Shown: piece by piece, positions 1,540-64,000 of the stretch
Numbering within the stretch: position 1 is the first letter of the stretch
How the letters are laid out: the number at the start of each line of letters is the position of its first letter
NCBI GenBank assembly: GCA_043228905.1
Contig: JBHGNT010000018.1
Coordinates: forward strand, 9,548,001-9,612,000
Length of the DNA stretch: 64,000 bases
Source: Azolla caroliniana
Lineage: Eukaryota; Plantae; Polypodiophyta
Direction: 5' to 3'
Position numbers and translations under genes: made by a program
The notes under the pieces: generated by a model
What the model was told of the DNA's origin: nothing
Databases searched by the model: none
The model's input: the letters and a program-made list of their open reading frames with translations, nothing else

Positions 1540-1541
1540 AG

Positions 1542-1553
1542 TGGTATCAGAGC
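1542..1553 (+). promoter_or_regulatory. Primer-binding site, tRNA-iMet
   Basis: TGGTATCAGAGC 2 nt after the LTR. Confidence 0.93.
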
Positions 1554-1569
1554 GACGGTAACACAGAAA

Positions 1570-5643: not shown

Positions 5644-5653
5644 AGGGGGAGTT

Positions 5654-9121: not shown

Positions 9122-9655
9122 ACGCAATCGTCGGATCTTGTTGATCGCCGTCCTGATGTTGTCAGTATCTTCGAAGCAGGCTTTAAACTCGCTAATAAAG
9201 TCTTCAAAGTTATTAAGCAAGGGAGATTGATTTTCTAAAAGCGGAGCGAACCTTGCAGAGGCTAAGCCGCTAAGCAACATGCTTATTAAGCCTACTTGGG
9301 ATGCCTCAATGGGGTATCGGGAAGGATGCATCTGAATGACTAAACGTACCTGATTATGGAATCCTCTGAATTGTGATCGTGTTCCATCAAATTTCACAGG
9401 AAGTCCAATCTTGGGCTCTTTATGAAGTCCTTGGGGACTTGATCCCTGTTGTTGCAATGCTACGATGGTTGCTTCGAGTTGTTGCACACGTAACGCTAAC
9501 TCCCCATGTTGCTGCGTTTGCTGTTTTTCTAAAGTGATTTATTGAAGATCCCCTAACAGTCGTTGGTTTTCTTGTCCCAATGCAACAATTTTTTCTTTTA
9601 GACACTAAATCTCGGAAAAAACGGGTTGATATTCTTGGGCGCTAACATTAGCCAT
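9122..9655 (-). pseudogene. gag: 5' part of gag of a Tcn1/Tf1-type Gypsy, cut by the Gypsy A insertion
   Basis: EPKIGLPVKFDGTRSQFRGF...LLSG..WF-like retrotransposon gag; paralogous to 23145-24146; probable ATG at 9655. Confidence 0.82.
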
Positions 9656-30346: not shown

Positions 30347-33300
30347 CATTCATGGTCTAGGATAGTGAATTCAAATCTACACAAACTAGAGGTGGGTTTC
30401 AGACCCAACAAATCCAAAACTCTAACAATGAATTATACATTAAGGGTTTACCATGGAAGCAAAAACTCATAGTGTGATGGGTAGTGAGTGACCAAAATGA
30501 ATAAGGTATTTTGCATTTATAGAGTCCTAGAGATGTCTAATACTTCCTCAAAAATTAATTACAATCATTCATTTGTGAGCTATAACTAAGCATTTCACAT
30601 ACATTGATTATTTATTCCCCAATTGTGAGGCTTTCATTAGTAATTAAACAAATTCAAAGGATAGTCGACTCTTCCGTTTCTAGCCAAGATTTGGTACTTG
30701 TAGCTCATTGCATAGAATGTTTATTTCCTAAGCAGATGGTTCAAGTTTGACCCCTTCCTAGTGTGATTGAAACAAAGATCATTCATTTCCTTTGTATTCA
30801 CAATGTTGTATTTGGTTTATCTGTTGTAGATCGAGCTTTACCCAATCTTATGTGCATAACACTAATAACATACTCCACATTCATGGTCTAGGAGAGTGAA
30901 TTCAAATTCGCACAAACTAGAGGTGGGTTTCAGACCCAACAAATACAAAACTCTACCAATTTATTATATATTAAGGATTTACCATGCAAGCAAAAACTTA
31001 TACTAAAATGGGTTCGAAGTGACTAAAAGGAATGAGGTATTTTGCAATTCGAGACTACTATAGATGTTCAGTATTTCCTAAAAAATCGATTGCGGTGATT
31101 AATTTTTGAGCTATAATTAGCCATTTCACATACATTGATTATATATTCACCAATTCAAAGGCCTTGATTAGTAATTAGAAAAATTAGTAGAATAGTGGAC
31201 CCTTTCTTTGAGAACCCATATTTTTCACTTGTAGTTCAGGGGATAGATCATGTGTTTCCTAATCGAAAGGCTGAAGGTTGGACATCTTCCTACTGCGATT
31301 CCAACAATAACCATTCATTACCTTTATATTCAAAATGATGGATTTATTTTATGTGTCGAGGATCAAGGTTTACCCAATCTCATGTGTAGAACACCACTAA
31401 GATACTCCACATTCCTTGTTTGGGATAGTGAATTTAAATTTCCATAAATTAGAGGTGGCTTTTTGACCTAACAAATGCAAAACTCTAACAATCTATTATA
31501 CATTAAAGGTTTACCATGGAAACAAAAACTCATAGTGTGATGGGTCCTAAGTGACAAAAATGAATGAGCTATTTTGCATTTAGAGAGTCCTATAGATGTT
31601 CGATACTTCCTCAAAAATTAATTACGATCATTCATTTGTGAGCTATAACTAAGCATTTCACATACATTGATTATTCATTCCCCAATTCAGAGGCATTTAT
31701 TAGTAATTAAACAAATTCAAAAGATAGTCGACTATTCTGTTTACAACCAAGATTTGGTACTTGTAGCTCATTGGATAGAATGTTTATTTCCTAAGAAGAT
31801 GGTTCAAGCTCGACCCCTTCCTAGTACGATTGAAACAATGATCATTCATTTCCTTTGTATTCACAATGTTGTATTTGGTTTATCTGTTGCAGATCGAGCT
31901 TAACCCAATCTTATGTGCAGAACACTAATAACATACTCCACATTCATGGTCTAGGATAGTGAATTCAAATTTGCACAAACTAGAGATGGGTTGCAGACCC
32001 AACAAATGCAAAACTCTAGCGATGTATTATATATGAAGGATTTACAATACAAACAAAAACTTATACTATAATGGATCTGAAGTGACCAAAAGGAATGAGG
32101 TATTTTGCAATTAGAGACTGGTATACATGTTTAGTATTTCCTAAAAAATCGATTCCGGTGATTCATTTGTGATCTATAACTAAGCATTTCACATACATTG
32201 ATTATTTATTCCCGAATTCAGAGTCATTGATTAGTTATTAGAGAAATTCATACGATAGTCGACTATTACTTTTGGTGCAAAGATTTGGCACTTGTAGCTT
32301 AGTGGATTGAGCTTCTGTTTCCTAAGAAATAGACCGAAGGTTTGACTCCTTCCTAGTGTGATTGAAACGATGATCAATGATTTCCTTTGTATTCACAATG
32401 TTGTACTTGGTTTATCTGTCGCAGATCGAGGTTTACCCAATCTTATGTGCATAACACTACTAAGATACTCTACATTCTTCGCCTAGGATAGTGAATTCAA
32501 ATTTGCATAAACTAGAGATGGTTTTCAAACCCAACAAATGCAAAAGTCTAATGTTTTATTATACATTAAGGGTTTACCATGGAAGCAAAAACTCATACCC
32601 AAGTGCCCAAAACAAATGAGGTATTTTGCAATTAGAGACTAGTATAGATGTTCAGTATTTCTTAAAAAATCGATTGCGGTGATTAATTTGTGTGCTATAA
32701 TTAGCCATTTCACATACATTGATTATATATTCACCAATTCAAAGGCCTTGATTAGTAATTAGAAAAATTAGTAGAATAGTGGACCCTTTCTTTGAGAACC
32801 CATATTTGTCACTTGTAGTTCAGGGGATAGATCATGTGTTTCCTAATCGAAAGGTTGAAGGTTGGACACCTTCCTAGTTCGATTCTAACAATAACCATTC
32901 ATTACCTTTATATTCAAAATGATGGATTTATTTTATGTGTCGAGGATCAAGGTTTACCCAATCTCATGTGTAGAACACCACTAAGATACTCCACATTCCT
33001 TGTTTGGGATAGTGAATTTAAATTGGCATAAATTAGAGGTGGCTTTCTGACCCAACAAATGCAAAACTCTAACGATGTATTATACATTAAGGGTTTACCA
33101 TGGAAACAAAAATTCATAGTATGATGGGTCCTGAGTCACAAAAATGAATGAGGTCTTTTGGATTTAGAGAGTCCTATAGATGTTCAATACTTCCTCAATG
33201 AATTAAAATAAGATGATTCATTTGTGAGCTATAACTAAGCATTTCACGTACATTTATTATTTATTCCCCAATTGAGATTGATTAGGAATTAGAGAAATTC

Positions 33301-35609
33301 ATACGATAGTCGACTCTTTTTTTTGGTGGCACGATGAAGCACTTATAGCTCAATGGATAGAGCGCGTCTATTTCCTTAGCAAAAGGCTGAAGGTTCAACC
33401 CCTTCCTAGTGTGATTGAAACAATGATCATTCATTTCCTTCATATTCACAATGTTGTATTTGGTTTATCTGTCGCAGATCGAGGATTGTAACCCAATCTT
33501 ATGTGTGTAACACTACTAAGATACTCCACATTCATGGTCTAGGATAATGAATTCAAATTTGCACAAACTAGAGGTGGGTTTTAGACCCAACAAATGCAAA
33601 ATTCTAGCGATGTATTATATATTCAGGATTTACCATGCAAGCAAAAATTTATACTATGATGCGTCCCAAATGACCAATAGGAACGAGGAATTTTGCAATT
33701 AGCAATTAATACAGATGTTCAGTATTTCCTGAAAAATTGATTGCGGTGATTCATTTGTTAGCTATAATTAGCCAATTCACATACATTGATTATATATTCA
33801 CCAATTCAGAGACATAGATTAATAATTATAAAAATTAATAGAATAGTGGACCCTTTCTTTTAGAAACAATATTTGCAACTTGTAGTTTAGTGGATAGAGC
33901 GTCTGTTTCCTAGCGAAAGGGTGAAGGTTGGACCCGTTCCTAGTGCGATTCAAACAATAACCATTCATTACCTTTATATTCAAAATGTTGTATTTATTTT
34001 ATGTGTCAAGGATCGAGGTTTATCCAATCTCATTTGCATAACACTAGTAAGATACTCCACTTTCCTTGTCTGGGATAGTGAATTTACACTAAGCGTTTAT
34101 CATGGAAGCAAAAACTCATAGTGTAATGGGTCCTGAGTGACCAAAATGAATAAGGTATTTTGCATTTAGAGACTCCTATAGATGTTTTATACTTCCTCAA
34201 AAATTAATTACGATCATTCGTTTGTGAGCTATAACTAAGCATTTTACATACATTGATTATCTATTCCCCAATTCAGAGGTATTCATTAGTAATTAGACAA
34301 ATTCAAAGCATAGTCAACACTTTTGTTTACAGCCAAGATTTTGTAGCTCATTGGATAGAGCGTCTATTTCCTATGCAGAAGGTTGAAGTTTCGACCCCTT
34401 CCTAGTGTGATTCAAACAATGATCATTCATTTCCGTTGTATTCACAATGTCATATTTGGTTTTGTTGGGAGACAGGTCCCTCCGGATGGGAAGGGAGAAG
34501 AATAGTGTGGATGAACAAACTCGGCCGAGGCCAAAATCGGATGAGGAGTACCCGGCTATGGAGAGCCGGATGGTGCAGGCCCGGTGTGAACCGGATGAGG
34601 AGTACTCGGCTACGGAGAGCCGGATGGTGCAGGCCCGGTGTGAACCGGATGAGGAGTACTCGGCTAATCACACCGGATGAGGAGTACTCGGCTACGGAGA
34701 GCCGGATGACGCAGACCCGGTGCGAACCGGAGGAAGAGACATATTCGTAAATATGTTTCTGAGAGCCCATCGAGGCTACATTTGTAAATAGCCGAAAAGT
34801 CATATTAGTATAAATATGACTTAGGGCAAGCTTTTAGTGGTTGTTGTTAATTTTTTGGAGTTGTCATTATTTTTTTCTTGTTGGTGCAAGAAGAAGAGTC
34901 AGCACGTAACAGTGTACAAAGAGAGAGAGAGAGAGAGAGAGAAAGAGGTCGCTGCCTCTGTTGTAACCGCCGCTTGTGGCGAAGATCATGAGCACGAGGT
35001 CGTTGCCTCCGTGAACTCACTGTTTTGTACATTACTACATAGTGACAGTTTGCAGCCTATGGGCTGCCGTGGTTTTTCCCCTAGTTTGGGGTTTTCCACG
35101 TAAACCTCCTGTGTAATATCTTCCTCTTCTCTGTGTCGTGTTTTATTTCCCATTTTCTGTGTATCATTCTAAGCTCGGTTGTGGCCGAGCGTTGCGCATA
35201 AGGAACGTTGAGTTCCCGTCAGGTTTAAATGTCACCAATCGAGGTTTACCCAATCTTATGTGCATAACACGAATAAGATACTCCACATTCATGGTCTAGG
35301 ATAGTGAATTCAAATTTGCACAAACTAGAGGTGGGTTTTAGACCCAACAAATGGAAAACTTTAGCAATGTATTATATATTAAGGATTTACAATGCAAACA
35401 ATAACTTATGCTATGATGGGTCCCAAGTGACCAAAAGGAATAAGGTATTTTACAATTAGAGACTAGTATAAATGTTCAGTATTTCCTAAAAAACGATTTT
35501 TGTGATTCATTTGTGAACTATAACTAAGCATTTCACACACATTGATTATTTATGCCCCAATTCAGAGTCAATACTCAGGAATTAGAGAAATTCGTTGGAT
35601 AGTTGACTC
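30347..35609 (+). repeat. tRNA-Arg-derived satellite, left degenerate layer (~530-bp monomers)
   Basis: Pseudo-tRNA starts near 30694, 31225, 31757, 32288, 32809, 33339, 33875, 34340 (spacing mostly 521-536 bp); shared spacer motifs such as CACATACATTGATTAT and GAGGTATTTTGCA. Confidence 0.92.
34463..35221 (+). mobile_element. Solo LTR of a Copia related to 779-6414
   Basis: TGTTGGGA...TCCCGTCA, TSD GGTTT (34458-34462 and 35222-35226); shares GGTCCCTCCGGATGGGA, GAGTACCCGG repeats, TATAAATATGACTTAGGGCA and (GA)n with the Copia LTR. Confidence 0.92.
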
Positions 35610-35964
35610 AAAACCCTCCAACATTTTCTACAAACTCCTTGTATACCCCTCCGTTACTTTCTAATATTCCCCAACCTAACCCCCTTCCCCCTTTTTGTAA
35701 TGACCCCCACCCATATTTTCCCCCCAACACTTTGTATAATTCTGGTCTTTCCCCTCCCCCTATTTCTAACACATCCCCCTCCCCCCCTAATATCTTCACA
35801 CACTCCCTCTCCTTTCTTAATAATTCCACACATGCACCCTCCCCCCCCCTATTCTCATATAATTTGAAAAATAACCCCTCCCTATTTACATATAATACCC
35901 CTCCCCTTTTTCCTAAGTCTAACAAACTAAAACTCTGTCTTATACATGTAGACCAAAAAACGGG

Positions 35965-36409
35965 TGTTAGCCGGCTGGCAAGGGAAGTCCAGAATGGGAA
36001 AAGGGGGATAATTAATAACCGGGAGCTGATTATCTATAATATTTAGAAGGATATTTTGAGAAGCGAACGGACGGATCGGAATCGGTATGCCGATCCAGAT
36101 CCGGACCGGTTCGTAGCCGGTTGCCGGTTGGCACCGGTTTGTACTTAGAATCGAGGACCTATAAAAGGGCCCAGTTAGATTGTAATCATTAGTGGATAAT
36201 TAATAAAGTGTTGTTGTTCTATATCTTAACCAGTGTTAATTACCGTTCTGTGCTACGTGTGTATTGTGATTAATGATCTTGCCGATTAGTAACCACTTAG
36301 GGTTTCATTAATACTTCGGTCTAAGTTTATCTCACTGCAAGACCCCTTTGGTGAAGTGTCTCAAAGGGACACCCTGTGTTAGGGCATTGTCCGGCCCCTA
36401 GCGATAACA
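35965..36409 (+). repeat. 5' LTR of Gypsy E
   Basis: Direct repeat of 45474-45932; CTATAAAAGGG TATA box. Confidence 0.93.
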
Positions 36410-36451
36410 CAGTTTTTGGTGACCACGGTTCCTCCACAACGGCAGGAATGG

Positions 36452-39400
36452 ATGACTAGACCAACGAACGACCCGGTTACGGAGCGAGCAAGAAGACTTG
36501 TCGAACGATTGCGGAAGCGAGAGGCTTTCCATCAGGTGGCAGAAGAGATCCGTGCGGATCGATCACTTTCCAAAGTAATCCGGCGAGTGGCCGCGGATTC
36601 ACTTCGCATGTAACAAATTTCCCACCCGGACGAAGGAAGCAGCTTGAGCATTCTCCGGGATGCGGGATCCATTTTGCATGCATTAGCGATAGTGGAAGGC
36701 GATTCAGAACCGCTCTCAACCCTCGAATCGGATTCGGACGGCGAATGTAGTGCCCATTCGAATTGCCATAGTAGCCACAACATCCCAGACGGACTGGAGG
36801 AGGAGTAGTCAAATACCTTGCCAACACCAAAACCGGAGTTAACGGAACTGGAAGCCCCAAACTGGCAAGTGGCGGATCAACTTCTAACATCGCCACGTGA
36901 AACACCGAAAGAAGAGGAGGAAAGACCTCTCACACCGAAAGAAGCGGAGGGGAGACCCCTGACACCACCAACCCATGTTCCGACACTGAACGACGACATG
37001 CCGTTCCAATATCCAAAGTACCGGGATGATCCGGACGTGGAAGCTCATGTCTATGCATTTCTACAAACATGGGAAGCAAACCATGTGTCGCTACGCTTTA
37101 CCGCCGTCGAAGCAGAACGCTTGAAGATTGTAGTGTTCGGCATGACCTTAAACCCTAAACCCTAAACCAGCCGCGCGATGTCGCTTGACGCACCCTCCGG
37201 ACACCATCACGACGTTTGAGGACTTAAAAACCAGACTTTTACAGTTCTTCAACAAGGAGGTGGATCAACGGGAGATGGTCGACCTATTCTACACCATACG
37301 ACAGGAACCTACGGAAACCATTTAGCAATTTGTAATTTGGTTCCAGCAAATGCACAACCAGCTAAATTGGGCAGCAACCGAAAAGACGCTCACGACCGAG
37401 ACCGGCAGGATAGGTACCGGGATTAGAACGGTGATCGATATGAGAGACACAACCGGGATCACTCCCTAGGTTACAACCAACGGAGGGGGGATCAAGGCAA
37501 TTATATAAACTGGCCCCGATAGGGTTACCAGAACAAAAAACGCTTCAACAAAAAATGGAACATTAGAAAGGAGGACCACCAATGGCAGCCGGACAAGGGC
37601 ACACCAAGGACCCAACTGGACCAAGGCCAAGCACCTAACCAACCACCAATAGGACCTCAACCGGGTACCGAAGTGAATGCCGAATCCAGCAACACCCGAA
37701 AAGTGTACTGCTACTATTGCCGGCAAGAAGGACATTATAGTAATCAATGTCCGGTTAAAAGTTACGAGAAACGACCAACAGTAAATATAGTGGTAGCAGA
37801 AGTCGCCGACATACAACAAGTCACCACCAGGGCAAAAGGCAAAACAACGAAGTGGGAAACACAGGAAGCAATCCGAAAGCAAGCCACTGAGTGGGTGAAA
37901 AAGGCAGATGAGCGGAATGTGGCTGAGCTTGAACAACAAAAGGAGAAACCGGAAGAGGCCACCGACACGATTCAACCGGAAAACCCAACATGGCAAGCGT
38001 TACAAGAATGTCAAATTACACTGTCATTGGGTCAGTTATTATAGCTAGTACCCCAGTTTACGGAAGGGCTGAAATCAGGAATGACCACATCAAATCCGTT
38101 GCCGGCTCCTGCGTTCTTCTCAAATTCGGAAGAAGGGCCAATAGTGGTTGACACGAACAGTCCGGCAATCACTGCCATCATCAAAGGAAGAGAACTACCA
38201 GGCACGATTGTGGACAAAGGATTGGGCATGAATGTGATTAGTCTACGGACTTGTAATACTCTAGGAATCTAGGAATGGGAGCCTTGCCCATTTTGGCTCC
38301 GAATGGCGGATACAAGTTCGGTAAGACCTACCAGTTTGATATGGGATTTAGACATAACTATCAGATGACACACATTCCGTATTTTGGCGGTGGTTCTCCA
38401 GCTCAATGCGCAAGGGACTTACCCATTGTTGTTGGGCCGCCCATGGCTAAAAACGACGCATATCAAACAAAACTGGAGGAAAAACATGATTACCTTCTAG
38501 CGAGGAAAGGCTAAAGTAAGGGTACCTACCCACCCTCAATCGAGTACCGGCAAGGAGCTGACACTACTATATGGGGAAGACGTAAACATGCTCGAGGGGC
38601 TTGCTGACGAAGAGGTCGACCAATACTTAGAAGAAAACCCAAAAATTGTACCCCTATTTGAAATTGATGTAGCAGAAGCCCTGTCACCATATATAACACA
38701 ATCGGATGATGCCGGTGAGGAACCGGATAGGGAAGCTATCAGAGAATGACGACAAGCACAAGAAGCTCTGGAGAGGGAGCTGGCGGTATTTGAATGCGTG
38801 AAAGCATCCCAGTTCGAGGAAGTGAACTTAGGAACCGGGGACGACGCAAGACCGGTTCATATTGCTAAGGAAATGTCACCGTATAAGAAGACGACGATGA
38901 TCACTTTATTAAAGGAATTCTGAGACGTATTCGCCTGGTCCTATGAAGACATACGGGGGCTGGATCCTCAGTTGTACCAACACCAGATACATCTCAATAA
39001 GGATGCCAAACCGGTAGCACAACGGCATTACCGGATGAACCCTAACTATGTAGCAAAAGTCAAAGAGGAAATTGACAAGTTGCTACGGGTTTATCCGACC
39101 AGTGAAAAAAGCTACATGGTTAAGTCCCATAGTCATCGTGCCGAAAAAGAACGGTAAGATCTGGGTGTGTGTCGACTATCGGAAGCTCAATGTGGAAACA
39201 GTGACCAACGCCTTTCCACTTCCATTTACGGATGGAGTGCTGGACACGGTAGCGGGTCATGAAGTGTATAGCTTCCTAGACGGTTTCAGCGGCTACAATC
39301 AAATAAGGATGCACCCCGACGACCAAGACAAGATGGCATTTTATCACCGAATGGGGAATTTTCGTCGTAGTGGTAATGACGTTCGGGCTCAAGACCGCAC

Positions 39401-51932: not shown

Positions 51933-52005
51933 GCACTTGTAGCTCAGTGGATAGAGCGTCTGTTTCCTAAGCAGAAGGCCGAAGGTTCGACCCCTTCCTA
52001 GTGCG
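51933..52005 (+). tRNA. trnR-CCT: tRNA-Arg(CCT)
   Basis: Identical to consensus. Confidence 0.88.
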
Positions 52006-52329
52006 ATTGAAACCACGATCTTTCATTTCCGTTGTATTCTTTTATGTGTGGCGGATCGACGTTTACCTCCAACAAATACAAAACTCTAACGACGTATTAT
52101 ATTTAAAGGATTTACCATGCAAGCAAAATTATAAACTGTGATGGGTCCCACGTGACCAAGAGGAATGAGGTATTTTGCAATTAGAGACTACGATAGAGGT
52201 TCAGTATTTCCTAAAAAATCGATTGTGCTGATTAATTTGTGACCTATAATTAGCCATTTCACATACATTGATTATATATTCACCAATTCAAAGGCATTGT
52301 TTAGTAATTAGAAAAATTAGAAAGATGTG

Positions 52330-52402
52330 GCACTTGTAGCTCAGTGGATAGAGCGTCTGTTTCCTAAGCAGAAGGCCGAAGGTTCGACCCCTTCCTAGTG
52401 CG
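52330..52402 (+). tRNA. trnR-CCT: tRNA-Arg(CCT)
   Basis: Identical to consensus. Confidence 0.88.
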
Positions 52403-52843
52403 ATTGAAAAACCGATTATTTATTTCCGTTGGATTCTTTTACGTGTGGCGGATCGACGTTTACCTACAACAAATGCAAAACTCTAGCGAGGTATTATATT
52501 TTAAGGATTTACCATGCAAGCAAAAACATAAACTGTCATGGGTCCCAAGTGACCAAGAGGAATGAGGAATTTTGCAATTAGAGACTACGATAGAGGTTCA
52601 GTATCTCCTAAAAAATTGATTGTGTTGATTAATTTGTGACCTATAATTAGCCATTTCACATACATTGATTATATATTCGCCAATTTAGAGGCATTCTTTA
52701 GTAATTAAAAAAATTAGTAGAATAGTGCACCATTTCTTTTAGATCCAATATTGTGCCATTGTAGATCAGTAGATAGACAGTCTGTTTCCTAACACTATTA
52801 AGATACTTCACATTCTTGGTTTCGGATAGTGAAAATCAAATTT

Positions 52844-52916
52844 GCACTTGTAGCTCAGTGGATAGAGCGTCTGTTTCCTAAGCAGAAGGCCGAAGGTTCG
52901 ACCCCTTCCTAGTGCG
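52844..52916 (+). tRNA. trnR-CCT: tRNA-Arg(CCT)
   Basis: Identical to consensus. Confidence 0.88.
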
Positions 52917-53240
52917 ATTGAAACCACGATCTTTCATTTCCGTTGTATTCTTTTATGTGTGGCGGATCGACGTTTACCTCCAACAAATACAAAACTCTAA
53001 CGACGTATTATATTTAAAGGATTTACCATGCAAGCAAAATTATAAACTGTGATGGGTCTCACGTGACCAAGAGGAATGAGGTATTTTGCAATTAGAGACT
53101 ACGATAGAGGTTCAGTATTTCCTAAAAAATCGATTGTGCTGATTAATTTGTAACCTATAATTAGCCATTTCACATACATTGATTATATATTCACCAATTC
53201 AAAGGCATTATTTAGTAATTAGAAAAATTAGAAAGATGTG

Positions 53241-53313
53241 GCACTTGTAGCTCAGTGGATAGAGCATCTGTTTCCTAAGCAGAAGGCCGAAGGTTCGACC
53301 CCTTCCTAGTGCG
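53241..53313 (+). tRNA. trnR-CCT: tRNA-Arg(CCT), G26A variant
   Basis: Same as 51420. Confidence 0.84.
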
Positions 53314-53753
53314 ATTGAAAAACCGATCATTTATTTCCGTTGGATTCTTTTACGTGTGGCGGATCGATGTTTACCTACAACAAATGCAAAACTATAGCGA
53401 GGTATTATATTTTAAGTATTTACCATGCAAGCAAAAACATAAACTGTCATGGGTCCCAAGTGACCAAGAGGAATGAGGAATTTTGCAATTAGAGACTACG
53501 ATAGAGGTTCAGTATCTCCTAAAAAATTGATTGTGTTGATTAATTTGGGACCTATAATTAGCCATTTCACATACATTGATTATATATTCGCCAATTTAGA
53601 GGCATTCTTTAGTAATTAAAAAAATTAGTAGAATAGTGGACCATTTCTTTTAGATGCAATATTGTGCCATTGTAGATCAGTAGATAGACCGTCTGTTTCC
53701 TACACTACTAAGATACTTCACATTCTTGGTTTCGGATAGTGAAAATCAAATTT

Positions 53754-53826
53754 GCACTTGTAGCTCAGTGGATAGAGCGTCTGTTTCCTAAGCAGAAGGC
53801 CGAAGGTTCGACCCCTTCCTAGTGCG
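53754..53826 (+). tRNA. trnR-CCT: tRNA-Arg(CCT)
   Basis: Identical to consensus. Confidence 0.88.
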
Positions 53827-54150
53827 ATTGAAACCACGATCTTTCATTTCCGTTGTATTCTTTTATGTGTGGCGGATCGACGTTTACCTCCAACAAATAC
53901 AAAACTCTAACGACGTATTATATTTAAAGGATTTACCATGCAAGCAAAATTATAAACTGTGATGGGTCCCACGTGACCAAGAGGAATGAGGTATTTTGCA
54001 ATTAGAGACTACGATAGAGGTTCAGTATTTCCTAAAAAATCGATTGTGCTGATTAATTTGTGACCTATAATTAGCCATTTCACATACATTGATTATATAT
54101 TCACCAATTCAAAGGCATTGTTTAGTAATTAGAAAAATTAGAAAGATGTG

Positions 54151-54223
54151 GCACTTGTAGCTCAGTGGATAGAGCGTCTGTTTCCTAAGCAGAAGGCCGA
54201 AGGTTCGACCCCTTCCTAGTGCG
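54151..54223 (+). tRNA. trnR-CCT: tRNA-Arg(CCT)
   Basis: Identical to consensus. Confidence 0.88.
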
Positions 54224-54664
54224 ATTGAAAAACCGATTATTTATTTCCGTTGGATTCTTTTACGTGTGGCGGATCGACGTTTACCTACAACAAATGCAAA
54301 ACTCTAGCGAGGTATTATATTTTAAGGATTTACCATGCAAGCAAAAACATAAACTGTCATGGGTCCCAAGTGACCAAGAGGAATGAGGAATTTTGCAATT
54401 AGAGACTACGATAGAGGTTCAGTATCTCCTAAAAAATTGATTGTGTTGATTAATTTGTGACCTATAATTAGCCATTTCACATACATTGATTATATATTCG
54501 CCAATTTAGAGGCATTCTTTAGTAATTAAAAAAATTAGTAGAATAGTGCACCATTTCTTTTAGATCCAATATTGTGCCATTGTAGATCAGTAGATAGACA
54601 GTCTGTTTCCTAACACTATTAAGATACTTCACATTCTTGGTTTCGGATAGTGAAAATCAAATTT

Positions 54665-54737
54665 GCACTTGTAGCTCAGTGGATAGAGCGTCTGTTTCCT
54701 AAGCAGAAGGCCGAAGGTTCGACCCCTTCCTAGTGCG
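54665..54737 (+). tRNA. trnR-CCT: tRNA-Arg(CCT)
   Basis: Identical to consensus. Confidence 0.88.
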
Positions 54738-55061
54738 ATTGAAACCACGATCTTTCATTTCCGTTGTATTCTTTTATGTGTGGCGGATCGACGTTTACCT
54801 CCAACAAATACAAAACTCTAACGACGTATTATATTTAAAGGATTTACCATGCAAGCAAAATTATAAACTGTGATGGGTCTCACGTGACCAAGAGGAATGA
54901 GGTATTTTGCAATTAGAGACTACGATAGAGGTTCAGTATTTCCTAAAAAATCGATTGTGCTGATTAATTTGTAACCTATAATTAGCCATTTCACATACAT
55001 TGATTATATATTCACCAATTCAAAGGCATTATTTAGTAATTAGAAAAATTAGAAAGATGTG

Positions 55062-55134
55062 GCACTTGTAGCTCAGTGGATAGAGCATCTGTTTCCTAAG
55101 CAGAAGGCCGAAGGTTCGACCCCTTCCTAGTGCG
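55062..55134 (+). tRNA. trnR-CCT: tRNA-Arg(CCT), G26A variant
   Basis: Same as 51420. Confidence 0.84.
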
Positions 55135-55574
55135 ATTGAAAAACCGATCATTTATTTCCGTTGGATTCTTTTACGTGTGGCGGATCGATGTTTACCTACA
55201 ACAAATGCAAAACTATAGCGAGGTATTATATTTTAAGTATTTACCATGCAAGCAAAAACATAAACTGTCATGGGTCCCAAGTGACCAAGAGGAATGAGGA
55301 ATTTTGCAATTAGAGACTACGATAGAGGTTCAGTATCTCCTAAAAAATTGATTGTGTTGATTAATTTGGGACCTATAATTAGCCATTTCACATACATTGA
55401 TTATATATTCGCCAATTTAGAGGCATTCTTTAGTAATTAAAAAAATTAGTAGAATAGTGGACCATTTCTTTTAGACGCAATATTGTGCCATTGTAGATCA
55501 GTAGATAGACCGTCTGTTTCCTACACTACTAAGATACTTCACATTCTTGGTTTCGGATAGTGAAAATCAAATTT

Positions 55575-55647
55575 GCACTTGTAGCTCAGTGGATAGAGCG
55601 TCTGTTTCCTAAGCAGAAGGCCGAAGGTTCGACCCCTTCCTAGTGCG
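55575..55647 (+). tRNA. trnR-CCT: tRNA-Arg(CCT)
   Basis: Identical to consensus. Confidence 0.88.
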
Positions 55648-55971
55648 ATTGAAACCACGATCTTTCATTTCCGTTGTATTCTTTTATGTGTGGCGGATCG
55701 ACGTTTACCTCCAACAAATACAAAACTCTAACGACGTATTATATTTAAAGGATTTACCATGCAAGCAAAATTATAAACTGTGATGGGTCCCACGTGACCA
55801 AGAGGAATGAGGTATTTTGCAATTAGAGACTACGATAGAGGTTCAGTATTTCCTAAAAAATCGATTGTGCTGATTAATTTGTGACCTATAATTAGCCATT
55901 TCACATACATTGATTATATATTCACCAATTCAAAGGCATTGTTTAGTAATTAGAAAAATTAGAAAGATGTG

Positions 55972-56044
55972 GCACTTGTAGCTCAGTGGATAGAGCGTCT
56001 GTTTCCTAAGCAGAAGGCCGAAGGTTCGACCCCTTCCTAGTGCG
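55972..56044 (+). tRNA. trnR-CCT: tRNA-Arg(CCT)
   Basis: Identical to consensus. Confidence 0.88.
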
Positions 56045-56485
56045 ATTGAAAAACCGATTATTTATTTCCGTTGGATTCTTTTACGTGTGGCGGATCGACG
56101 TTTACCTACAACAAATGCAAAACTCTAGCGAGGTATTATATTTTAAGGATTTACCATGCAAGCAAAAACATAAACTGTCATGGGTCCCAAGTGACCAAGA
56201 GGAATGAGGAATTTTGCAATTAGAGACTACGATAGAGGTTCAGTATCTCCAAAAAAATTGATTGTGTTGATTAATTTGTGACCTATAATTAGCCATTTCA
56301 CATACATTGATTATATATTCGCCAATTTAGAGGCATTCTTTAGTAATTAAAAAAATTAGTAGAATAGTGCACCATTTCTTTTAGATCCAATATTGTGCCA
56401 TTGTAGATCAGTAGATAGACAGTCTGTTTCCTAACACTACTAAGATACTTCACATTCTTGGTTTCGGATAGTGAAAATCAAATTT

Positions 56486-56558
56486 GCACTTGTAGCTCAG
56501 TGGATAGAGCGTCTGTTTCCTAAGCAGAAGGCCGAAGGTTCGACCCCTTCCTAGTGCG
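56486..56558 (+). tRNA. trnR-CCT: tRNA-Arg(CCT)
   Basis: Identical to consensus. Confidence 0.88.
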
Positions 56559-56882
56559 ATTGAAACCACGATCTTTCATTTCCGTTGTATTCTTTTATGT
56601 GTGGCGGATCGACGTTTACCTCCAACAAATACAAAACTCTAACAACGTATTATATTTAAAGGATTTACCATGCAAGCAAAATTATAAACTGTGATGGGTC
56701 CCACGTGACCAAGAGGAATGAGGTATTTTGCAATTAGAGACTACGATAGAGGTTCAGTATTTCCTAAAAAATCGATTGTGCTAATTAATTTGTAACCTAT
56801 AATTAGCCATTTCACATACATTGATTATATATTCACCAATTCAAAGGCATTGTTTAGTAATTAGAAAAATTAGAAAGATGTG

Positions 56883-56955
56883 GCACTTGTAGCTCAGTGG
56901 ATAGAGCGTCTGTTTCCTAAGCAGAAGGCCGAAATTTTGACCCCTTCCTAGTGCG
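56883..56955 (+). pseudogene. tRNA-Arg(CCT) pseudogene (B box destroyed)
   Basis: GAAATTTTGACC in place of GAAGGTTCGACC. Confidence 0.75.
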
Positions 56956-57712
56956 ATTGAAACAACGATCATTTATTTCCGTTGCATTCTTTTATGTGTG
57001 GCGGATAGATGTTTACCTACAACAAATGCAAAACTCTAGCGACGTATTATATATTAAGGATTTATCATGCAAGCAAAAACATATACTGTGATGGGTCCCA
57101 AGTGACCAAGAGGAATGAGGTATTTTGCAATTAGAGACTACGATAGAGGTTCAGTATTTCCTAAGAAATCGATTGTGGAGATTAATTTGTGACCTATAAT
57201 TAGCCATTTCACATACATTGATTATATATTAGCCAATTCAGAGGTATTGATTAGTAATTTGAAAAATTAGTAGAATAGTGGACCATTTCGTTTAGATCCA
57301 ATATTTGGCCATTGTAGTTCACTACATAGACCGTCTGTTTCCTAACACTACTAAGATAGTTCACATTCCAGTATTAGGATAGTGAATTCAAATTTGCATA
57401 AACTAGTGGTGGCATTAGACCCAACAAATGCAAAACTCTAACGATGTATTATACGTTAACGGCTTACCATAGAATCAAAAAATCTTAGTGTGATGGGTGG
57501 TCCTCAGTGACCAAAATAAATGAGGTATTTTGCATTTACACTGACCTATAGATGTTCAATACTTCCTTAAAAATTAATTAAGACGATTTATTTCTCAGCT
57601 TTAACTAAGCTTTTGACATACATTGATTATTTATTCCCCAATTGATAGTCATTACATAGGAAGTAGAGAAAATCATATGATAGTCTACTCTTTGTTTACG
57701 TGAAAAGATCTG

Positions 57713-57785
57713 GCACTTGTAGCTCAGTGGATAGAGCGTCTGTTTCCTAAGCAGAAGGCCGAAGGTTCAACCCATTCCTAGTGCG
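57713..57785 (+). tRNA. trnR-CCT: tRNA-Arg(CCT), T-arm variant (possibly a pseudogene)
   Basis: GGTTCAACCCATTCC; one T-stem mismatch. Confidence 0.55.
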
Positions 57786-58542
57786 ATTGAAACAACAATC
57801 ATTTATTTCCGTGGTATTCTTTTATGTGTGGCCGATCGAGGTTTACCCACAACAAATGCAAAACTCTAGCGACGTATTATATATTACGGATTTACCATGC
57901 AAGCAAAAACATATACTGTGATGGGTCCCAAGTGACCAAGAGGAATGAGGTATTTTGCAATTAGAGACTACGATAGAGGTTCAGTATTTCCTAAGAAATC
58001 GATTGTGGAGATTAATTTGTGACCTATAATTAGCCATTTCACATACATTGATTATATATTAGCCAATTCAGAGGTATTGATTAGTAATTTGAAAAATTAG
58101 TAGAATAGTGGACCATTTCGTTTAGATCCAATATTTGGCCATTGTAGTTCACTACATAGACCGTCTGTTTCCTAACACTACTAAGATAGTTCACATTCCA
58201 GTATTAGGATAGTGAATTCAAATTTGCATAAACTAGTGGTGGCATTAGACCCAACAAATGCAAAACTCTAACGATGTATTATACGTTAACGGCTTACCAT
58301 TGAATCAAAAACTCATAGTGTGATGGGTGGTCCTGAGCGACCAAAATGAATGAGGTATTTCGCATTTACACTGATCTATAGATGTTCAATACTTCCTTAA
58401 AAATTAATTAAGACGATTTATTTGTAAGCTATAACTAAGCTTTTCACATACATTGATTATTTATTCCCCAATTGATAGTCATTACAAAGGAAGTAGAGAA
58501 AATCAAATGATAGTAGACTCTTTGTTTTCGTGAAAAGATCTG

Positions 58543-58615
58543 GCACTTGTAGCTCAGTGGATAGAGCGTCTGTTTCCTAAGCAGAAGGCCGAAGGTTCGA
58601 CCCGTTCCTAGTGCG
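58543..58615 (+). tRNA. trnR-CCT: tRNA-Arg(CCT), T-stem variant (possibly a pseudogene)
   Basis: GGTTCGACCCGTTCC; one T-stem mismatch. Confidence 0.6.
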
Positions 58616-59117
58616 ATTGAAACAACGATCATTTATTTCCGTTGTATTCTTTTATGTGTGGCGGATCGACGTTTACCCACAACAAATGCAAAACTCTAGC
58701 GACGTAATATATATTAAGGATTTACCATGCAAGCAAACACATATACTGTGATGGGTCCCAAGTTACCAAGAGGAATGAGGTATTTTGCAATTAGAGACTA
58801 CGATAGAGGTTCAGTATTTCCTGAAAAATCGATTGTGCTGATTAATTTGTGACCTATAATTAGCCATTTCACATGCATTGATTATATATTCGCCATTTCA
58901 GAGGTATTGATTAGGAATTAAAAAAATTAGTAGAATAGTGGAGCATTTCTTTTAGATCCAATATTTGGCCATTGTAGTTCAGTGGATAGACCGTCTTTTT
59001 GCTAACACTACTAAGATACTTCACATTCTTGTATTAGGATAGTGAATTCAAATTTGCATAAACTAGTGGTGGCATTTAGACCCAACAAATGCAAAAGTCT
59101 AACTATGTATTATACGT

Positions 59118-59908
59118 TGTCGTAGTGTATTTCGTACACTACGTGAAAAAGTAAAAATAATATAACCGATTTAATTACATATAAATAAATAAAATAAAAT
59201 ATCAAGATATTTATCACGTGCATAGGGCAAGATTCGAACCATGTACCTCCACATAGCCAAACTTCAACTTTACCATTATGCTACCTTATCTTTAGTGTTC
59301 TATAAATAGATTTAATAACTATAAGTGCTTTATTTGCGCCTACCTTTATTAAAAAGGTAAATCATGCATTTTTAGAGTGCGTGAATATTTTATAGAAAAA
59401 CGCAAGCAACTAAAAAGTGACTCATGCACATCTAGCGTGCATGAGCACTATATTTAGCAAATAAAAGCAAGGATTAAAAAAGCATCACATGCACATTTAG
59501 TGTGCATGAACATATTAGAAAAAAAAGCATGTAGCTATGCTTAGTCTCTCCCATCACTACATAAGGATGGGGAGCACAATGTAATAGGCGTGTGAAATAT
59601 TTGGAAATTGGATATATTTCCGAAAACACCAACCGATTAATATAATCGTGGGATTCACGAAAATAATATAATCTATACTTGTGGGATTCACAAGTTTCTT
59701 ATATCTTTCTTTCAATCTAAATACATATTCTTACCTAAATATTGACTAAATATACTAAACTCATGGGATTCACGAGATTCTTATCTTATAACTCTTTCTT
59801 ACAACATATTTATATTCTTATTAGCCTTAAAACTCTCCTCTTCCTAGTCCAAAACCCCAGCGGTTTCCACCCGACTCACGCAACGATCCGGAGCCGAAAG
59901 GCACGACA
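59118..59908 (+). mobile_element. Solo LTR of the Gypsy A family inserted in the satellite
   Basis: TGTCGTAGTGTATT...GGCACGACA, homologous to 8418-9121; 4-bp TSD ACGT (59114-59117 and 59909-59912). Confidence 0.93.
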
Positions 59909-60168
59909 ACGTTAATGGCTTATCATGGAATCAAAAACTCATAGTCTGATGGGTGTTCCTGAGTGACGAAAATGAATGAGGTATTTTGCATTTACACTGA
60001 CCTATAGATGTTCAATACTTCCTTAAAAATTAAGTAAGACGATTTATTTGTCAGCTATAACTAAGCTTTTCACATACATTGATTATTTATTCCCCAATTG
60101 ATAGTAATTACAAAGGAAGTAGAGAAAATTATATGATAGTAGACTCTTTGTTTTCGTGAAAAGATTTG

Positions 60169-60241
60169 GCACTTGTAGCTCAGTGGATAGAGCGTCTGTT
60201 TCCTAAGCAGAAGGCCGAAGGTTCGACCCCTTCCTAGTGGG
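60169..60241 (+). tRNA. trnR-CCT: tRNA-Arg(CCT), C72G variant (possibly a pseudogene)
   Basis: Consensus except the 3' end CTAGTGGG. Confidence 0.55.
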
Positions 60242-63200
60242 ATTCAAAAAACGATCATTTATTTCCGTTGTAGTCTTTTATGTGTGGCGGATCGACATTT
60301 ACCCACAAGAAATGCAAAACTCTCGCGGCGTATTATATATTAACGATTTACCATGCAAGCAAAAACATATAGTGTGATGGGTCCCAAGTGACCAAGAGGA
60401 ATGAGGTATTTTGCAATTAGAGACTACGATAGAGGCTTAGTATTTCCTAAAAAATCAATTGTGCTAATGAATTTGTGACCTATAATTAGCCATTTCACAT
60501 ACATTGATTATATATTCGCCAATTCAGAGGCATTGATTAGTAATTTGAAAAATTATTATCTTTTAGATCCAATATTTGGCCATTGTAGTTCACTGGGTAG
60601 ACCGTCTGTTTCCTAACACTACTAAGATACTTCACATTCTTGTATTAGGATAGTGAATTCAAATTTGCATAAACTAGTGGTGGCATTTAGACCCAACAAA
60701 CTCTAACGATGTATTATACGTTCACTGGATAGACCGTCTGTTTCCTAACACTACTAAGATACTTCACATTCTTGTATTAGGATAGTGAATTCAAATTTGC
60801 ATAAACTAGTGGTGGCATTTAGACCCAACAAACTCTAACGATGTATTATACGTTAAGGGTTTACCATGGAAGCAAAAACTCATAGTGTGATGGGTAGTCT
60901 TGAGTGACCAAAATGAATGAGGTATTTTGCATCTACACAGTTCTATAGATGTTCAATACTTCCTCAAAAATTAATTACGACGATTTATTTATTGATTATT
61001 TATTCCCCAATTCAGATTGATTGAATTCTAATGACAGAGATTCATACCATAGTCAACTCGTTCCTTTGGTGTAAAGACTTAGCACATGTAGCTAAGTGGA
61101 GAGAGCGTTTTTTTCCTAAGTACAAGGCCAAAGGTTCGACCCCTTTATACGATGATTGAAATGATGATCAATCATTTCCTTTGTATGCAGAACGTTGTAT
61201 TTCGTTTATCTATCGCAGGTCGAGGTTTACCTAATCTTATGTGCATAACACTACTAAGATACTCCACATTCTTGGTCTGGGATAGTGAATTCAAATTCGC
61301 ATAAACTAGAGATGGCTTTCAAATCCAACAAATGGAAAAGTCTAACGTTGTATTATATATTAAGGGTTTACCATGGAAGAAAAAACTAATAGTGTGATGG
61401 GTCCTGAGTGACCAAAATAAATGAGTTATTTTGGATTTACAGAGTCGTATAGATGTTCAATACTTCCTTAAAAATTAATTTCGATTATTCATTTGTGAGC
61501 TATAACTAAGCATGTCACATACATTGATTATTTATTCTCCAATTTAGAGGCATTCATTAGTAATTAAACAAATTCAAAGGATTGTCGACTCTTCCGTTTA
61601 TAGCCACGATTTGGTACTTGTAGCTCATTTGATAGAGCGTCTATTTTCTAAGCAGAAGGTTGAAGATTCGACCCCTTCCTAGTGCGATTGAAACTACGAT
61701 CATTCATTTCCTTTGTATTCACAATGTTATATTTGTTTTATATGTCACAAGTCGAGCTTTACCTAATCTTATGTGCATAACACTAATAAGATACTACACA
61801 TTCATGGTCTAGGATAGTGAATTCAAATTTGCACAAACTACATGTGGGTTTCAGACCCAACAAATACAAAACTCTAGCGATGTAATATATTAAGGATTTA
61901 CCATGCAAGCAAAAACTTATACTGTGATGATTCCCTAGTGACCAAAACGAATGAGGTATTTTGCAATTAGAGAGTAGTATAGCTATTCAGTATTTCCCAA
62001 AAAATGATTGTAGTGATTAATTTATGAGGTATAATTAGCCATGTCACATACATTGATTATATAGTCGCCAATTTAGAGGCATTGATTAATAATTAGAAAA
62101 ATTAATATTATAGTGGACGCTTTCTTTTAGAACCAGTATTTGCCACTTGTAGTTAACTGGATAGATCATATGTTTCCTAAGCGAAAGGCTGAAGGTTGGA
62201 TCCCTTCCTAGTGCGATTAAAACAATAACCATTCATTACGTTTGTATTCGAAATGGTGTATTTATTTTATCTGTCAAGTATCGAGGTTTACCCAATCTCA
62301 TGTGCATAACACTAGTAAGATACTCCAAATTCCTTGTTAGGGATAGAGATTTTAATTTTGCATTTAGATAATTCTATAGATGTTCAATACATCCTCAAAA
62401 ATTAATTAGGATGATTCATTTGTGAGATATAACTAAGCATTTCACATACATTGATTATTTATTCCCCAATTTAGAGTCATTGATTAGTAATTAAAGAAAT
62501 TCATAGGATACTCGACTCTTTCATTTGGTGCCAAGATTAGACACTTGTAGCTCAGTGAATAGAGCATTTGTTTCCTAACCAGAAGGCCGAAGGTTTGACC
62601 CCTTCCTAGTGCGATTGAAACCACGATCGTTCATTTCCTTTGTAATCACAATGATCTATTTCGTTTATGTGTCGCGGATCGATGTTTACCCACAACAAAT
62701 GCAAAACTCTAGAGATGTAGTATATATTAAGGATATACCATGCAAGCAAAAACTTATACTCTGATGGGTCCCAAGTGACCAAGAGGAATGAGGTATTTTG
62801 CAATTAGAGACTAGTATAGAGGTTCAGTATTTTCTAAAAAAGTTGATTGCGGATATTAAATTGTGAGCTATAATTAGCCATTTCACATACATTGATTATA
62901 TATTCGCCAATTCAGAGGCATTGATTAGTAATTAGAAAAATTAGTAGAATAGTGGACCATTTCTTTTAGATCCAATATTTGGCAATTGTAGTTCAGTGGA
63001 TAGACCGTCTGTTTCCTAACACTACTAAGATACTTCACATTCTTGGTTTAGGATAGTGAATTCAAATTTGCATAAACTAGAGGTGGCTTTTAGACCCAAC
63101 AAATGCAAAACTCTACCGATGTATTATACAGTAAGGGTTTAGCATCGAATCAAAAACTCAGTGTGTGATGGGTGTTGAGTGACTAAAATGATTGAGGTAT

Positions 63201-64000
63201 TTTGCATTACAGAGTCGTATAGATGTTCAATACAACCTCAAAAATCGATTACGATAATTCATTTATGAGCTATAACTAAGCCATTTAACATACATTGATT
63301 ATATATTCGCCAATTCATAGGCATTGATAAGTAATTAGAAAATTAAAAATAATAGTGGACCCTTTCATTTAAATCCAATATTCCGCACTTATAGTTTAGT
63401 GGTTTGAGCGTTTGTTTCTTAACCTAAACATTGAAGGTTCGACCCCTTCCTAGTCCGATTCAAAGGAAAACCATTCATTTCCTTTGTATTCATAATAATG
63501 CATTTATTTTACGTGTTGAGGATCGAGCTTTACCCAATCTTATGTGTATAACACTACTATGATACTCCACATCCATGGTCTAGGATAGTGAATTCAAATT
63601 TGCACAAACTACAGGTCGCTTTTCGACCCAACAAATCCTCAAAAAATGATTACAATGATTTATTTGTGACCTATAATTAAGCATGTCACATACATTGATT
63701 ATTTATTCCCAAATTCAGAGGCAATGACCATTCATTTTAGTTGTATTCACAATGCTAGATTTGGTTTCTGTGTCAAATGTCTAGGTTTATCCAATCTCAT
63801 TTCGAGGTTTACCATGGGAGCAAAAACTCATAGAGTGAGTGACCTATAATTAAGCATGTAACATACATTGATTATTTATTCCCAAATTCAGAGGCAATGA
63901 CCATTCATTTTAGTTGTATTCACAATGCTGGATTTGGTTTCTGTGTCGAATGTCTAGGTTTACCCAATCTCATTTTGAGGTTTACCATGGGAGCAAAAAC

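What the first reader, a model, noticed from the sequence alone, without database searches (positions are those of the whole stretch)
30347..64000. Satellite DNA whose monomer is a tRNA-Arg(CCT) gene: a single-isoacceptor tRNA array
Seen: more than 20 kb of tandem repeat in which each ~530-bp ancestral monomer carries a tRNA-Arg(CCT) head, all on the same strand; 14 copies in the core are complete cloverleaves with intact A and B boxes. Known: tandem tRNA arrays exist (Arabidopsis Ser-Tyr-Tyr and Pro clusters, Entamoeba tRNA-STR arrays), and tRNA genes act as chromatin barriers at fission yeast centromeres. Inference: this could be a dosage amplifier for AGG decoding, a source of tRNA fragments, a TFIIIC/Pol III-organised chromatin domain in heterochromatin, or a selfish SINE-like satellite. 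I do not know of an Arg(CCT) array with this architecture.
Basis: partly seen in the sequence, partly recalled or inferred. Interest (0 to 1): 0.85.

Follow-up and report, generated by a model that had tools for sequence, protein, structure and literature searches.

The report
Satellite keeps its own arginine tRNA
In a plant genome, probably a fern's, a tandem repeat carries an arginine tRNA gene in every unit; most copies are decayed, but one array-only version has stayed unchanged across arrays and related species while the DNA between copies diverged, so it is likely a working reserve tRNA that is switched on only at times, and at least six other tRNA types form similar arrays in the same genome.

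Summary
Confirmed, with corrections. The window holds 19.8 kb of a tandem repeat in four blocks split by retroelements. All heads lie on one strand. The 14 intact tRNA-Arg(CCT) heads sit in a very young 1,821-bp higher-order repeat built from shortened monomers, not from 530-bp ones.

New here: the head is an array-only isodecoder. It differs from the five dispersed genes by two compensatory acceptor-stem pairs (A3-U70, U5-A68). It is the same in a sister array whose spacer consensus differs by 17%, one to two changes away in an older array whose spacers barely align, and identical in one contig of another organism with an unrelated spacer. Decayed copies mutate at spacer rate or faster, mostly C>T/G>A. 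This fits birth-and-death under purifying selection on the whole tRNA, as in the Arabidopsis Ser-Tyr-Tyr cluster.

An AGG-specific dosage role is weakened: Arg(TCT), Lys(TTT), Ile(TAT), Gln, Pro and Asn form similar arrays here. It is not a SINE. Expression is untested, and terminators are weak. Verdict: new variant of a known kind.

The parts
30346..34462 (+). Satellite block 1: mostly full-length (521-537 bp) monomers, eight decayed heads (9-14 differences from the array consensus)
34463..35221 (+). Solo-LTR-like insertion in the array, 69% like the Copia LTR at 779-1539
35222..35608 (+). Satellite block 2: spacer remnant
35609..47873 (.). Nested insertion holding a Gypsy-type element at 35964-45932 whose LTRs are 89.4% identical; gives a minimum relative age for the flanking array
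47874..59114 (+). Satellite block 3, grading from decayed to intact heads
50509..56882 (+). Young core: 3.5 copies of a 1,821-bp higher-order repeat (monomers of 397, 425 and 88-89 bp) with 14 intact heads and 7 5' stubs
51023..51095 (+). Representative intact tRNA-Arg(CCT) array isodecoder (A3-U70, U5-A68, C47); 11 identical copies in the core; first T4 run 35 nt downstream
51420..51492 (+). G26A variant head (also 53241-53313 and 55062-55134)
56883..58967 (+). 830-bp dimer units (one full head, one 5' stub); heads with 1-3 changes, same spacer clade as the core
59115..59911 (.). Solo-LTR-like insertion, 72% like 8418-9124
59912..64000 (+). Satellite block 4: one near-intact head (60169), then decayed heads; runs past the window end

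Best explanation
This is a tandem array of a tRNA-Arg(CCU) gene in which most copies decay while one array-only version has been kept intact and re-amplified, likely because it is transcribed as a working tRNA in some cell type or condition and is likely silenced by DNA methylation elsewhere. Steps: (1) shown: head-to-tail monomers, higher-order repeats and deletions, inside retroelement-rich DNA. (2) shown: decayed heads carry mostly C>T/G>A changes at C and G sites; inferred: the array is methylated heterochromatin. (3) shown: intact heads form one spacer clade with no head change on its internal branches, and the same head recurs with diverged or unrelated spacers; inferred: purifying selection on the whole tRNA, with unequal crossing-over re-amplifying survivors. 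(4) shown: two G-C pairs of the dispersed gene are A-U pairs in the array gene; inferred: methylation-driven transitions, kept only when compensated, made the array isodecoder. (5) untested: Pol III transcription, processing from a long 3' trailer, charging with arginine, and conditional use as a reserve pool. It is one member of a genome-wide set of such arrays, not an AGG-only device.
For: Dispersed genes: 5 matches genome-wide with up to 1 mismatch. Array head versus these: two pairs changed on both sides, all 20 counted pairs intact in 10 of 10 sequences, G3-U70 intermediate in one dispersed gene. Consensus of this array versus the sister array at C18:7.91-8.00 Mb: 1 of 73 head positions, 78 of 459 spacer positions (Fisher p 7e-5). 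Old array on C19 (1,889-bp unit, monomers about 62-73% alike): one head per unit has 2 differences, its three full decayed neighbours 17-21 (p 3e-7); the related C13 fragment has 1. Spacer-only tree of 41 monomers: 16 near-intact monomers form a clade (support 84) with 0 head changes on internal branches against 14-22 expected, while tips carry 18; outside the clade heads change 1.56 times as fast as spacers. Decayed heads: 361 of 700 changes are C>T or G>A; rate per site CHG 0.21, CG 0.14, CHH 0.085, A/T 0.032. Other species (contigs only): organism B shares head and spacer; organism C has a contig with a 0-difference head 309 bp from a 14-difference head and no spacer match; organism D has many heads, none of this spacer. 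An independent study of organism A covers all 29 bins of the monomer. Analogue: the Arabidopsis Ser-Tyr-Tyr cluster has cluster-specific tRNA-Tyr with G49A and C65T, is silent in most tissues, has a core with pseudogene-rich flanks and is reactivated in root cap (PMC7544208 abstract and section 15; PMC12308677 abstract and section 7).
Against: No expression evidence of any kind. Terminators are poor: T4 at +35 in the core, +132 or more on C13, C19 and C904, none within 400 nt for 3 of the 4 perfect heads of the sister array; dispersed genes have T4 at +2, +2, +6, +34 and +104. Only 4 of 98 scored sister-array heads are perfect, and most of its heads carry 3-8 changes, so most of the family is decaying. 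A further C19 copy, 9% diverged in spacer, has a damaged head. The array tRNA folds less stably (-20.9 against -25.3 kcal/mol; shuffle z only -0.9). The tree test rests on short spacers that recombine, and I chose the clade after seeing the heads. The consensus of this array mixes monomer subtypes, which inflates spacer distance. Five ordinary genes already exist, so need is not obvious.
Confidence: 0.6

Rival explanations
1. Selfish Pol III satellite: intact heads bind TFIIIC/Pol III, stall forks or open chromatin and so are copied more often; the host gains nothing.
For: Only intact lineages seed new amplifications. In this array all 18 near-intact heads sit in shortened monomers, 0 of 14 full-length ones. 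Deletion junctions fall at the head's 5' end. Many tRNA types form arrays and mostly lack close terminators.
Against: The 50 positions outside the A and B boxes are also unchanged between arrays (p 9e-5 at 17% divergence), including anticodon and acceptor stem, and the changes that were kept are compensatory.
Confidence: 0.16
2. Neutral tRNA-derived satellite: all copies are pseudogenes, and the intact heads are simply young or were refreshed by gene conversion from ordinary genes.
For: Most heads decay at spacer rate or faster; the core is extremely young; terminators are weak.
Against: Youth does not explain identical heads between lineages whose spacers differ by 10% (397 versus 425 type, 19 of 190), 17%, or beyond alignment. 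Conversion from dispersed genes would erase the four array-only acceptor bases, yet they persist.
Confidence: 0.09
3. Source of tRNA fragments: the array exists to supply a 5' fragment with a different seed, for example against retroelements in male gametes.
For: Two array-only bases (3 and 5) lie in the first 8 nt. 19-nt 5' fragments build up in plant male gametophytes and cut transposon RNA (PMC5605234 passages); an ArgCCT 5' fragment is among Argonaute-associated, drought-induced ones in Arabidopsis (PMC3574835 passages).
Against: No small-RNA data and no target search here. Many tRNA types show the same arrays, and the G-C to A-U shift has a simpler mutational cause.
Confidence: 0.08
4. 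Chromatin barrier or TFIIIC-organised domain near a centromere.
For: The window's annotated ORFs are retroelement proteins (12 of 16 tested, none a host gene family); two large arrays lie 1.6 Mb apart in the middle of an 18.1-Mb contig.
Against: A barrier needs boxes, not a whole tRNA. The family is on 4 of the large contigs only (C10, C13, C18, C19). The neighbouring young Copia family is scattered (16 matches on 7 contigs), which gives no sign of a centromere.
Confidence: 0.07

Closest known systems
Arabidopsis Ser-Tyr-Tyr and Pro tDNA clusters (PMC7544208; PMC12308677)
   Same: Tandem tRNA genes in heterochromatin; cluster-specific isodecoder that includes a G-C to A-U pair change; recently expanded core flanked by variant and pseudogene copies.
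   Different: Here one isoacceptor, Arg(CCT); far more decay (about 200 head hits, under 40 with two or fewer changes outside the two short contigs); satellite-type higher-order repeats; no close terminator, whereas Arabidopsis clustered genes keep their cis-elements; the isodecoder recurs in other species with unrelated spacers; expression not shown.
Plant tDNA homoclusters: maize Ile and Ala, barley Gln, Ceratodon Ile and Cys (PMC13437025 section 10 and cluster table; PMC12652284 passages)
   Same: Five or more genes of one isotype within 5 kb, made by tandem duplication; Ceratodon has many such intervals.
   Different: No plant cluster with a CCT anticodon is in the Hummel 2026 table (14 'CCT' places, all human or worm); that table covers 31 plants with one bryophyte and no fern. 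The supplement of PMC12652284 could not be read.
Nippostrongylus brasiliensis tRNA-Trp and tRNA-Ser tandem repeats (PMC5765664 passages)
   Same: Satellite-sized arrays of one tRNA plus a species-specific spacer (about 150 and 90 copies).
   Different: Nematode; the passages read report no test of head versus spacer conservation and no array-only isodecoder.
Extreme tRNA gene count of the fern Azolla filiculoides (over 7,500; PMC13578239 section 6; 7,848 in the table of PMC13437025)
   Same: A fern with unexplained thousands of tRNA calls, put down to duplication and repeats.
   Different: The review names no arrays. Whether that count comes from arrays like these was not tested, and this genome's tie to that species was not examined.
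tRNA-derived SINEs
   Same: tRNA-related head with A and B boxes followed by an unrelated body.
   Different: Not dispersed, no decay of the cloverleaf in the master, no A-rich tail. A separate dispersed family with a non-cloverleaf head does exist in this genome.
Entamoeba tRNA-STR arrays and fission-yeast centromeric tDNA barriers (recalled, not read)
   Same: Arrays of tRNA genes with a possible structural role.
   Different: No short-tandem-repeat spacers here beyond weak 29-bp periodicity; no centromere evidence.

Membership tests
Functional nuclear tRNA gene | Cloverleaf with 7-nt anticodon loop and covariance-model score | tested here: met
   RF00005 66.2-66.5 bits for 14 core heads; 20 of 20 pairs intact, U6-U67 mismatch shared with dispersed genes. 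tRNAscan-SE was not available.
Functional nuclear tRNA gene | Intact A and B boxes | tested here: met
   Identical to the five dispersed genes.
Functional nuclear tRNA gene | Oligo-T terminator within about 25 nt | tested here: not met
   First T4 at +35 in the core, later or absent in most other array copies; met by 3 of 5 dispersed genes.
Functional nuclear tRNA gene | Purifying selection relative to flanks | tested here: met
   holds for a lineage of copies, not for most copies.
Functional nuclear tRNA gene | Transcribed, processed and charged | not testable with these tools
   Only assembled contigs were on offer.
Plant tDNA homocluster (Hummel 2026 definition) | Five or more genes of one isotype within 5 kb | tested here: met
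   14 intact heads in 6.05 kb, 11 in the first 5 kb.
Plant tDNA homocluster (Hummel 2026 definition) | DNA methylation and silencing as in Arabidopsis | tested here: inconclusive
   The mutation spectrum fits past methylation; no methylome. Spacers of intact copies keep CG (observed/expected 1.03) against 0.56 in decayed ones.
Satellite DNA | Head-to-tail monomers, higher-order repeats, few loci | tested here: met
tRNA-derived SINE | Dispersed single insertions | tested here: not met
   All 66 and 84 pattern matches lie in or near arrays or array fragments; one spacer match at C18:7.847 Mb was not inspected.
tRNA-derived SINE | A-rich or simple-repeat tail with target-site duplication | tested here: not met
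   Monomers abut the next head with no tail; read by eye, no formal duplication scan.
Retrotransposon primer tRNA | Primer-binding sites or CCA-tailed copies matching this tRNA's 3' end | tested here: not met
   0 exact 16-nt matches genome-wide; 0 11-nt matches in 849 kb held.
Centromeric tDNA barrier | Flanks a CENH3 domain and binds TFIIIC | not testable with these tools
   No chromatin data; one search gave no clustering of the neighbouring Copia.

The most novel reading that the evidence does not exclude
This plant lineage keeps a second, satellite-borne tRNA set: for many amino acids an array-only isodecoder lives inside methylated tandem repeats, survives by repeated re-amplification of intact heads while spacers turn over completely between species, and is switched on as a reserve in a particular cell type or growth state. 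Such arrays would account for much of the extreme, unexplained tRNA gene counts reported in a fern.
Probability: 0.3. Interest if true: 0.82.

Novelty: new variant of a known kind. Interest (0 to 1): 0.6.

Why it matters
Whether clustered plant tRNA genes are adaptive or by-products is called unresolved in a 2026 review (PMC13578239, passages). Here head and spacer, intact and decayed neighbours, and several species give built-in controls that point to selection on a tRNA found only in satellite DNA. Four acceptor-stem bases tag every array transcript, so expression can be tested directly by tRNA sequencing. The same build in at least seven tRNA types offers a concrete, checkable cause for very high tRNA gene counts in a fern and warns that such counts mostly reflect decaying copies.

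Tried and rejected
RNA: no RNA holder listed. Two runs guessed to be RNA laid 0 records and a run of unknown kind laid 1; none of this bears on expression. Primer or processed-copy idea: no match. Protamine demand: 4 linker-histone matches are lysine-rich with 1-7 arginines; a paper search gave only animal protamines (listing only); neither supported nor properly tested. 'Arrays only for A-rich codons (AAA, AGA, AGG, AUA)': suggested, rejected when broader patterns showed Gln, Pro and Asn arrays; the RF00005 search scored only 63 of 58,716 candidates, and the patterns listed only the first 100 places (contigs C1-C3) of 930 and 1,754, so the list of arrayed types is a lower bound. Centromere test by Copia LTR: scattered. 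Lineage: I first took the genome for a moss; linker-histone searches were not diagnostic; a host gene's named hits were ferns at 32-33% with closer unnamed hits at 66-94%, so 'probably a fern' is weak, and Physcomitrium codon data (PMC5507605 passages) were dropped as evidence. Local alignments between arrays cover short stretches and are biased, and the global alignment misaligned; I rely on the consensus comparison. Two long-branch tips holding non-satellite DNA were left out of the rate ratio. C369, C904 (97-98% like C18 regions) and C1271 may be second haplotypes and are not counted as separate arrays. Summed contig depths are no copy numbers and are not used as such. Full-text search for the head's first 18 bases: 0 papers. 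Earlier-finding look-ups by sequence and by words: nothing.
Full report
Observation. The window is G000:C18:9548001-9612000 of a 523-Mb plant genome. A tandem repeat fills 30346-34462, 35222-35608, 47874-59114 and 59912-64000, in all 19,834 bp. The gaps are inserted elements, one a Gypsy-type element with LTRs 89.4% identical, so the outer array is old. There are 50 head hits, all on +: 35 full-length, one 3' remnant, 14 5' stubs. Rfam scores 27 as tRNA, ARAGORN 22. Fourteen heads at 50509-56558 are intact (66.2-66.5 bits): 11 identical, 3 with G26A. They lie in 3.5 copies of a 1,821-bp unit with 0-2 mismatches per 1,500 bp, made of shortened monomers. All 18 heads of this array with two or fewer changes are in shortened monomers, none of 14 full-length ones.

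Family in the genome. The array continues in pieces to C18:9.72 Mb (74 head hits). A sister array lies on the other strand at C18:7.91-8.00 Mb (102 hits), a small one on C10, and an older relative on C19 with a fragment on C13. Short contigs C369 and C904 are 97-98% like C18 regions and may be second haplotypes. Exactly 5 dispersed tRNA-Arg(CCT) genes were found. No dispersed single gene of the array type was found.

An array-only isodecoder. Against the dispersed genes the array head changes G3-C70 to A3-U70 and C5-G68 to U5-A68; one dispersed gene has G3-U70; all 20 counted pairs hold in 10 of 10 sequences. All four changes are C>T or G>A. The C18 arrays also have C47 where dispersed genes, C13 and C19 have U47. 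The arginine identity bases A20, C35 and U36 (recalled, no call) are unchanged.

Selection on the head. (a) Consensus of the two C18 arrays: 1 of 73 head and 78 of 459 spacer positions differ (p 7e-5). (b) In the 1,889-bp C19 unit, whose monomers are about 62-73% alike, one head has 2 differences and three neighbours 17-21 (p 3e-7). (c) On a spacer-only tree of 41 monomers (51 before removing near-duplicates), 16 near-intact monomers form a clade (support 84) with no head change on internal branches against 14-22 expected, while tips carry 18; outside it heads change 1.56 times as fast as spacers, two artefact tips left out. (d) Contigs of other organisms: B shares head and spacer; C has a 0-difference head 309 bp from a 14-difference head and no spacer match; D laid 572 records on the head and none past its first bases. 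The 50 positions outside the A and B boxes are conserved too. Limits: spacers recombine, the clade was picked after seeing the heads, contigs give no copy numbers, and most copies are plainly decaying (only 4 of 98 sister-array heads perfect; a damaged C19 copy).

Decay. Among 122 distinct heads, 361 of 700 changes are C>T or G>A, with rates per site CHG 0.21, CG 0.14, CHH 0.085 and A/T 0.032. I infer methylation. Spacers of intact copies keep CG at expectation (1.03) while decayed ones are depleted (0.56).

Against function. No expression data could be had. The first T4 run is at +35 in the core and farther or absent in most other intact copies; 3 of 5 dispersed genes have one within 6 nt. 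The array tRNA folds less stably than the dispersed one. No primer site or CCA-tailed copy matches it.

Not only Arg(CCT). Following clusters in a tRNA family search and two broad patterns, I found single-type arrays with a few near-intact and many decayed heads for Arg(TCT) (107 head hits in 70 kb), Lys(TTT) (73 in 60 kb), Pro (129 in 30 kb), Gln (49 in 20 kb), Asn(GTT) (34 in 10 kb) and Ile(TAT) (9 in 10 kb). Close T4 runs are rare there as well (1 of 56, 1 of 57, 10 of 67, 9 of 26, 0 of 15, 2 of 8). The Asn array consensus also carries an A-U pair where the four dispersed genes fetched have G-C; the Gln consensus matches one dispersed gene apart from one base. I did not run the selection test on these families, and the survey is partial. 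This removes the case for an AGG-only purpose.

Mechanism. Most likely (0.6) a birth-and-death tRNA array: tandem duplication, amplification by unequal crossing-over, methylation-driven decay of most copies, and survival of a lineage of whole, working tRNA genes that are probably used conditionally. Architecture, decay and conservation are shown; methylation, selection as the cause, and expression are inferred or untested. Rivals: selfish Pol III-driven amplification (0.16), neutral satellite (0.09), fragment source (0.08), chromatin barrier (0.07).

Comparison. It works like the Arabidopsis Ser-Tyr-Tyr cluster: cluster-specific tRNA with a compensated pair, silent in most tissues, core with pseudogene-rich flanks, active in root cap (PMC7544208 abstract and section 15; PMC12308677 abstract and section 7). 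It meets the homocluster definition of PMC13437025 (section 10, passages, supplements searched), whose table has no plant CCT cluster but includes no fern. Large tRNA arrays are known in Ceratodon (PMC12652284 passages; supplement unreadable and may list Arg clusters) and in Nippostrongylus (PMC5765664 passages). It fails the SINE tests. The lineage is probably a fern (weak; earlier notes agree). A review reports over 7,500 tRNA genes in one fern without naming arrays (PMC13578239 section 6 and passages); term searches of two fern genome papers found nothing on host tRNA arrays in their main text (PMC6786969, PMC9477723).

Novelty. Ten library searches (listings read) showed no report of an Arg(CCT) array or of an array-only isodecoder conserved across spacer turnover; most subscription papers are outside the library. 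Verdict: new variant of a known kind, interest 0.6.

Noticed in passing
L068-L072, L084 (C5:17.91-18.02 Mb; C16:18.117 Mb): tRNA-Lys(TTT) satellite arrays, 368-bp core period; two copies carry a GTT anticodon and are called Asn by ARAGORN.
   Followed up: partly
L073, L076-L081 (C11:0.69 Mb; C22:1.43-1.51 Mb; C4:19.51-19.58 Mb): tRNA-Arg(TCT) arrays with one near-intact head per higher-order unit among strongly decayed heads, the same build as the C19 Arg(CCT) array.
   Followed up: partly
L088-L093, L074 (C1:26.2-26.4 Mb; C3:9.32-9.38 Mb; C3:6.38 Mb; C2:20.109 Mb): Gln, Pro, Asn(GTT) and Ile(TAT) arrays, mostly decayed; the Pro array mixes AGG, TGG and CGG anticodons at about 135-bp spacing.
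   Followed up: partly
L027:2795-2867 (C2:23.34 Mb): A dispersed tRNA-Arg(CCT) gene with a G3-U70 pair, the alanyl-tRNA synthetase identity element (recalled); could be mischarged with alanine.
   Followed up: no
L105-L107: A dispersed family of several hundred copies with A and B boxes but no cloverleaf, followed by a second tRNA-like box set in the opposite direction; SINE- or MITE-like.
   Followed up: no
window 779-6414: Young, intact Copia element (LTRs 99.9% identical, 1,383-aa ORF) with 56-bp tandem repeats in its LTR, inserted into a Gypsy remnant.
   Followed up: partly
window 45450-45471, minus strand; also L036, L040, L084, L090: Just inside the 3' LTR of the Gypsy element at 35964-45932 lies a site matching the 3' end of tRNA-Arg(TCT) in reverse, like the PPT-less elements in earlier notes; in L036 such a site recurs 11 times at an 809-bp period.
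   Followed up: no
window 46114-47046: 310-aa ORF with no Pfam match, in the insertion that encloses the Gypsy element; by eye it resembles a non-LTR or Penelope-type reverse-transcriptase remnant.
   Followed up: no
window 49715-49787: A decaying head with C35A reads as tRNA-Met(CAT); anticodon shifts in the arrays will mislead automatic tRNA counts.
   Followed up: no
L083 (C16:18.07 Mb) and L082: Bacterial-type rRNA pieces and tRNAs on chromosome-scale contigs, probably organelle insertions.
   Followed up: no
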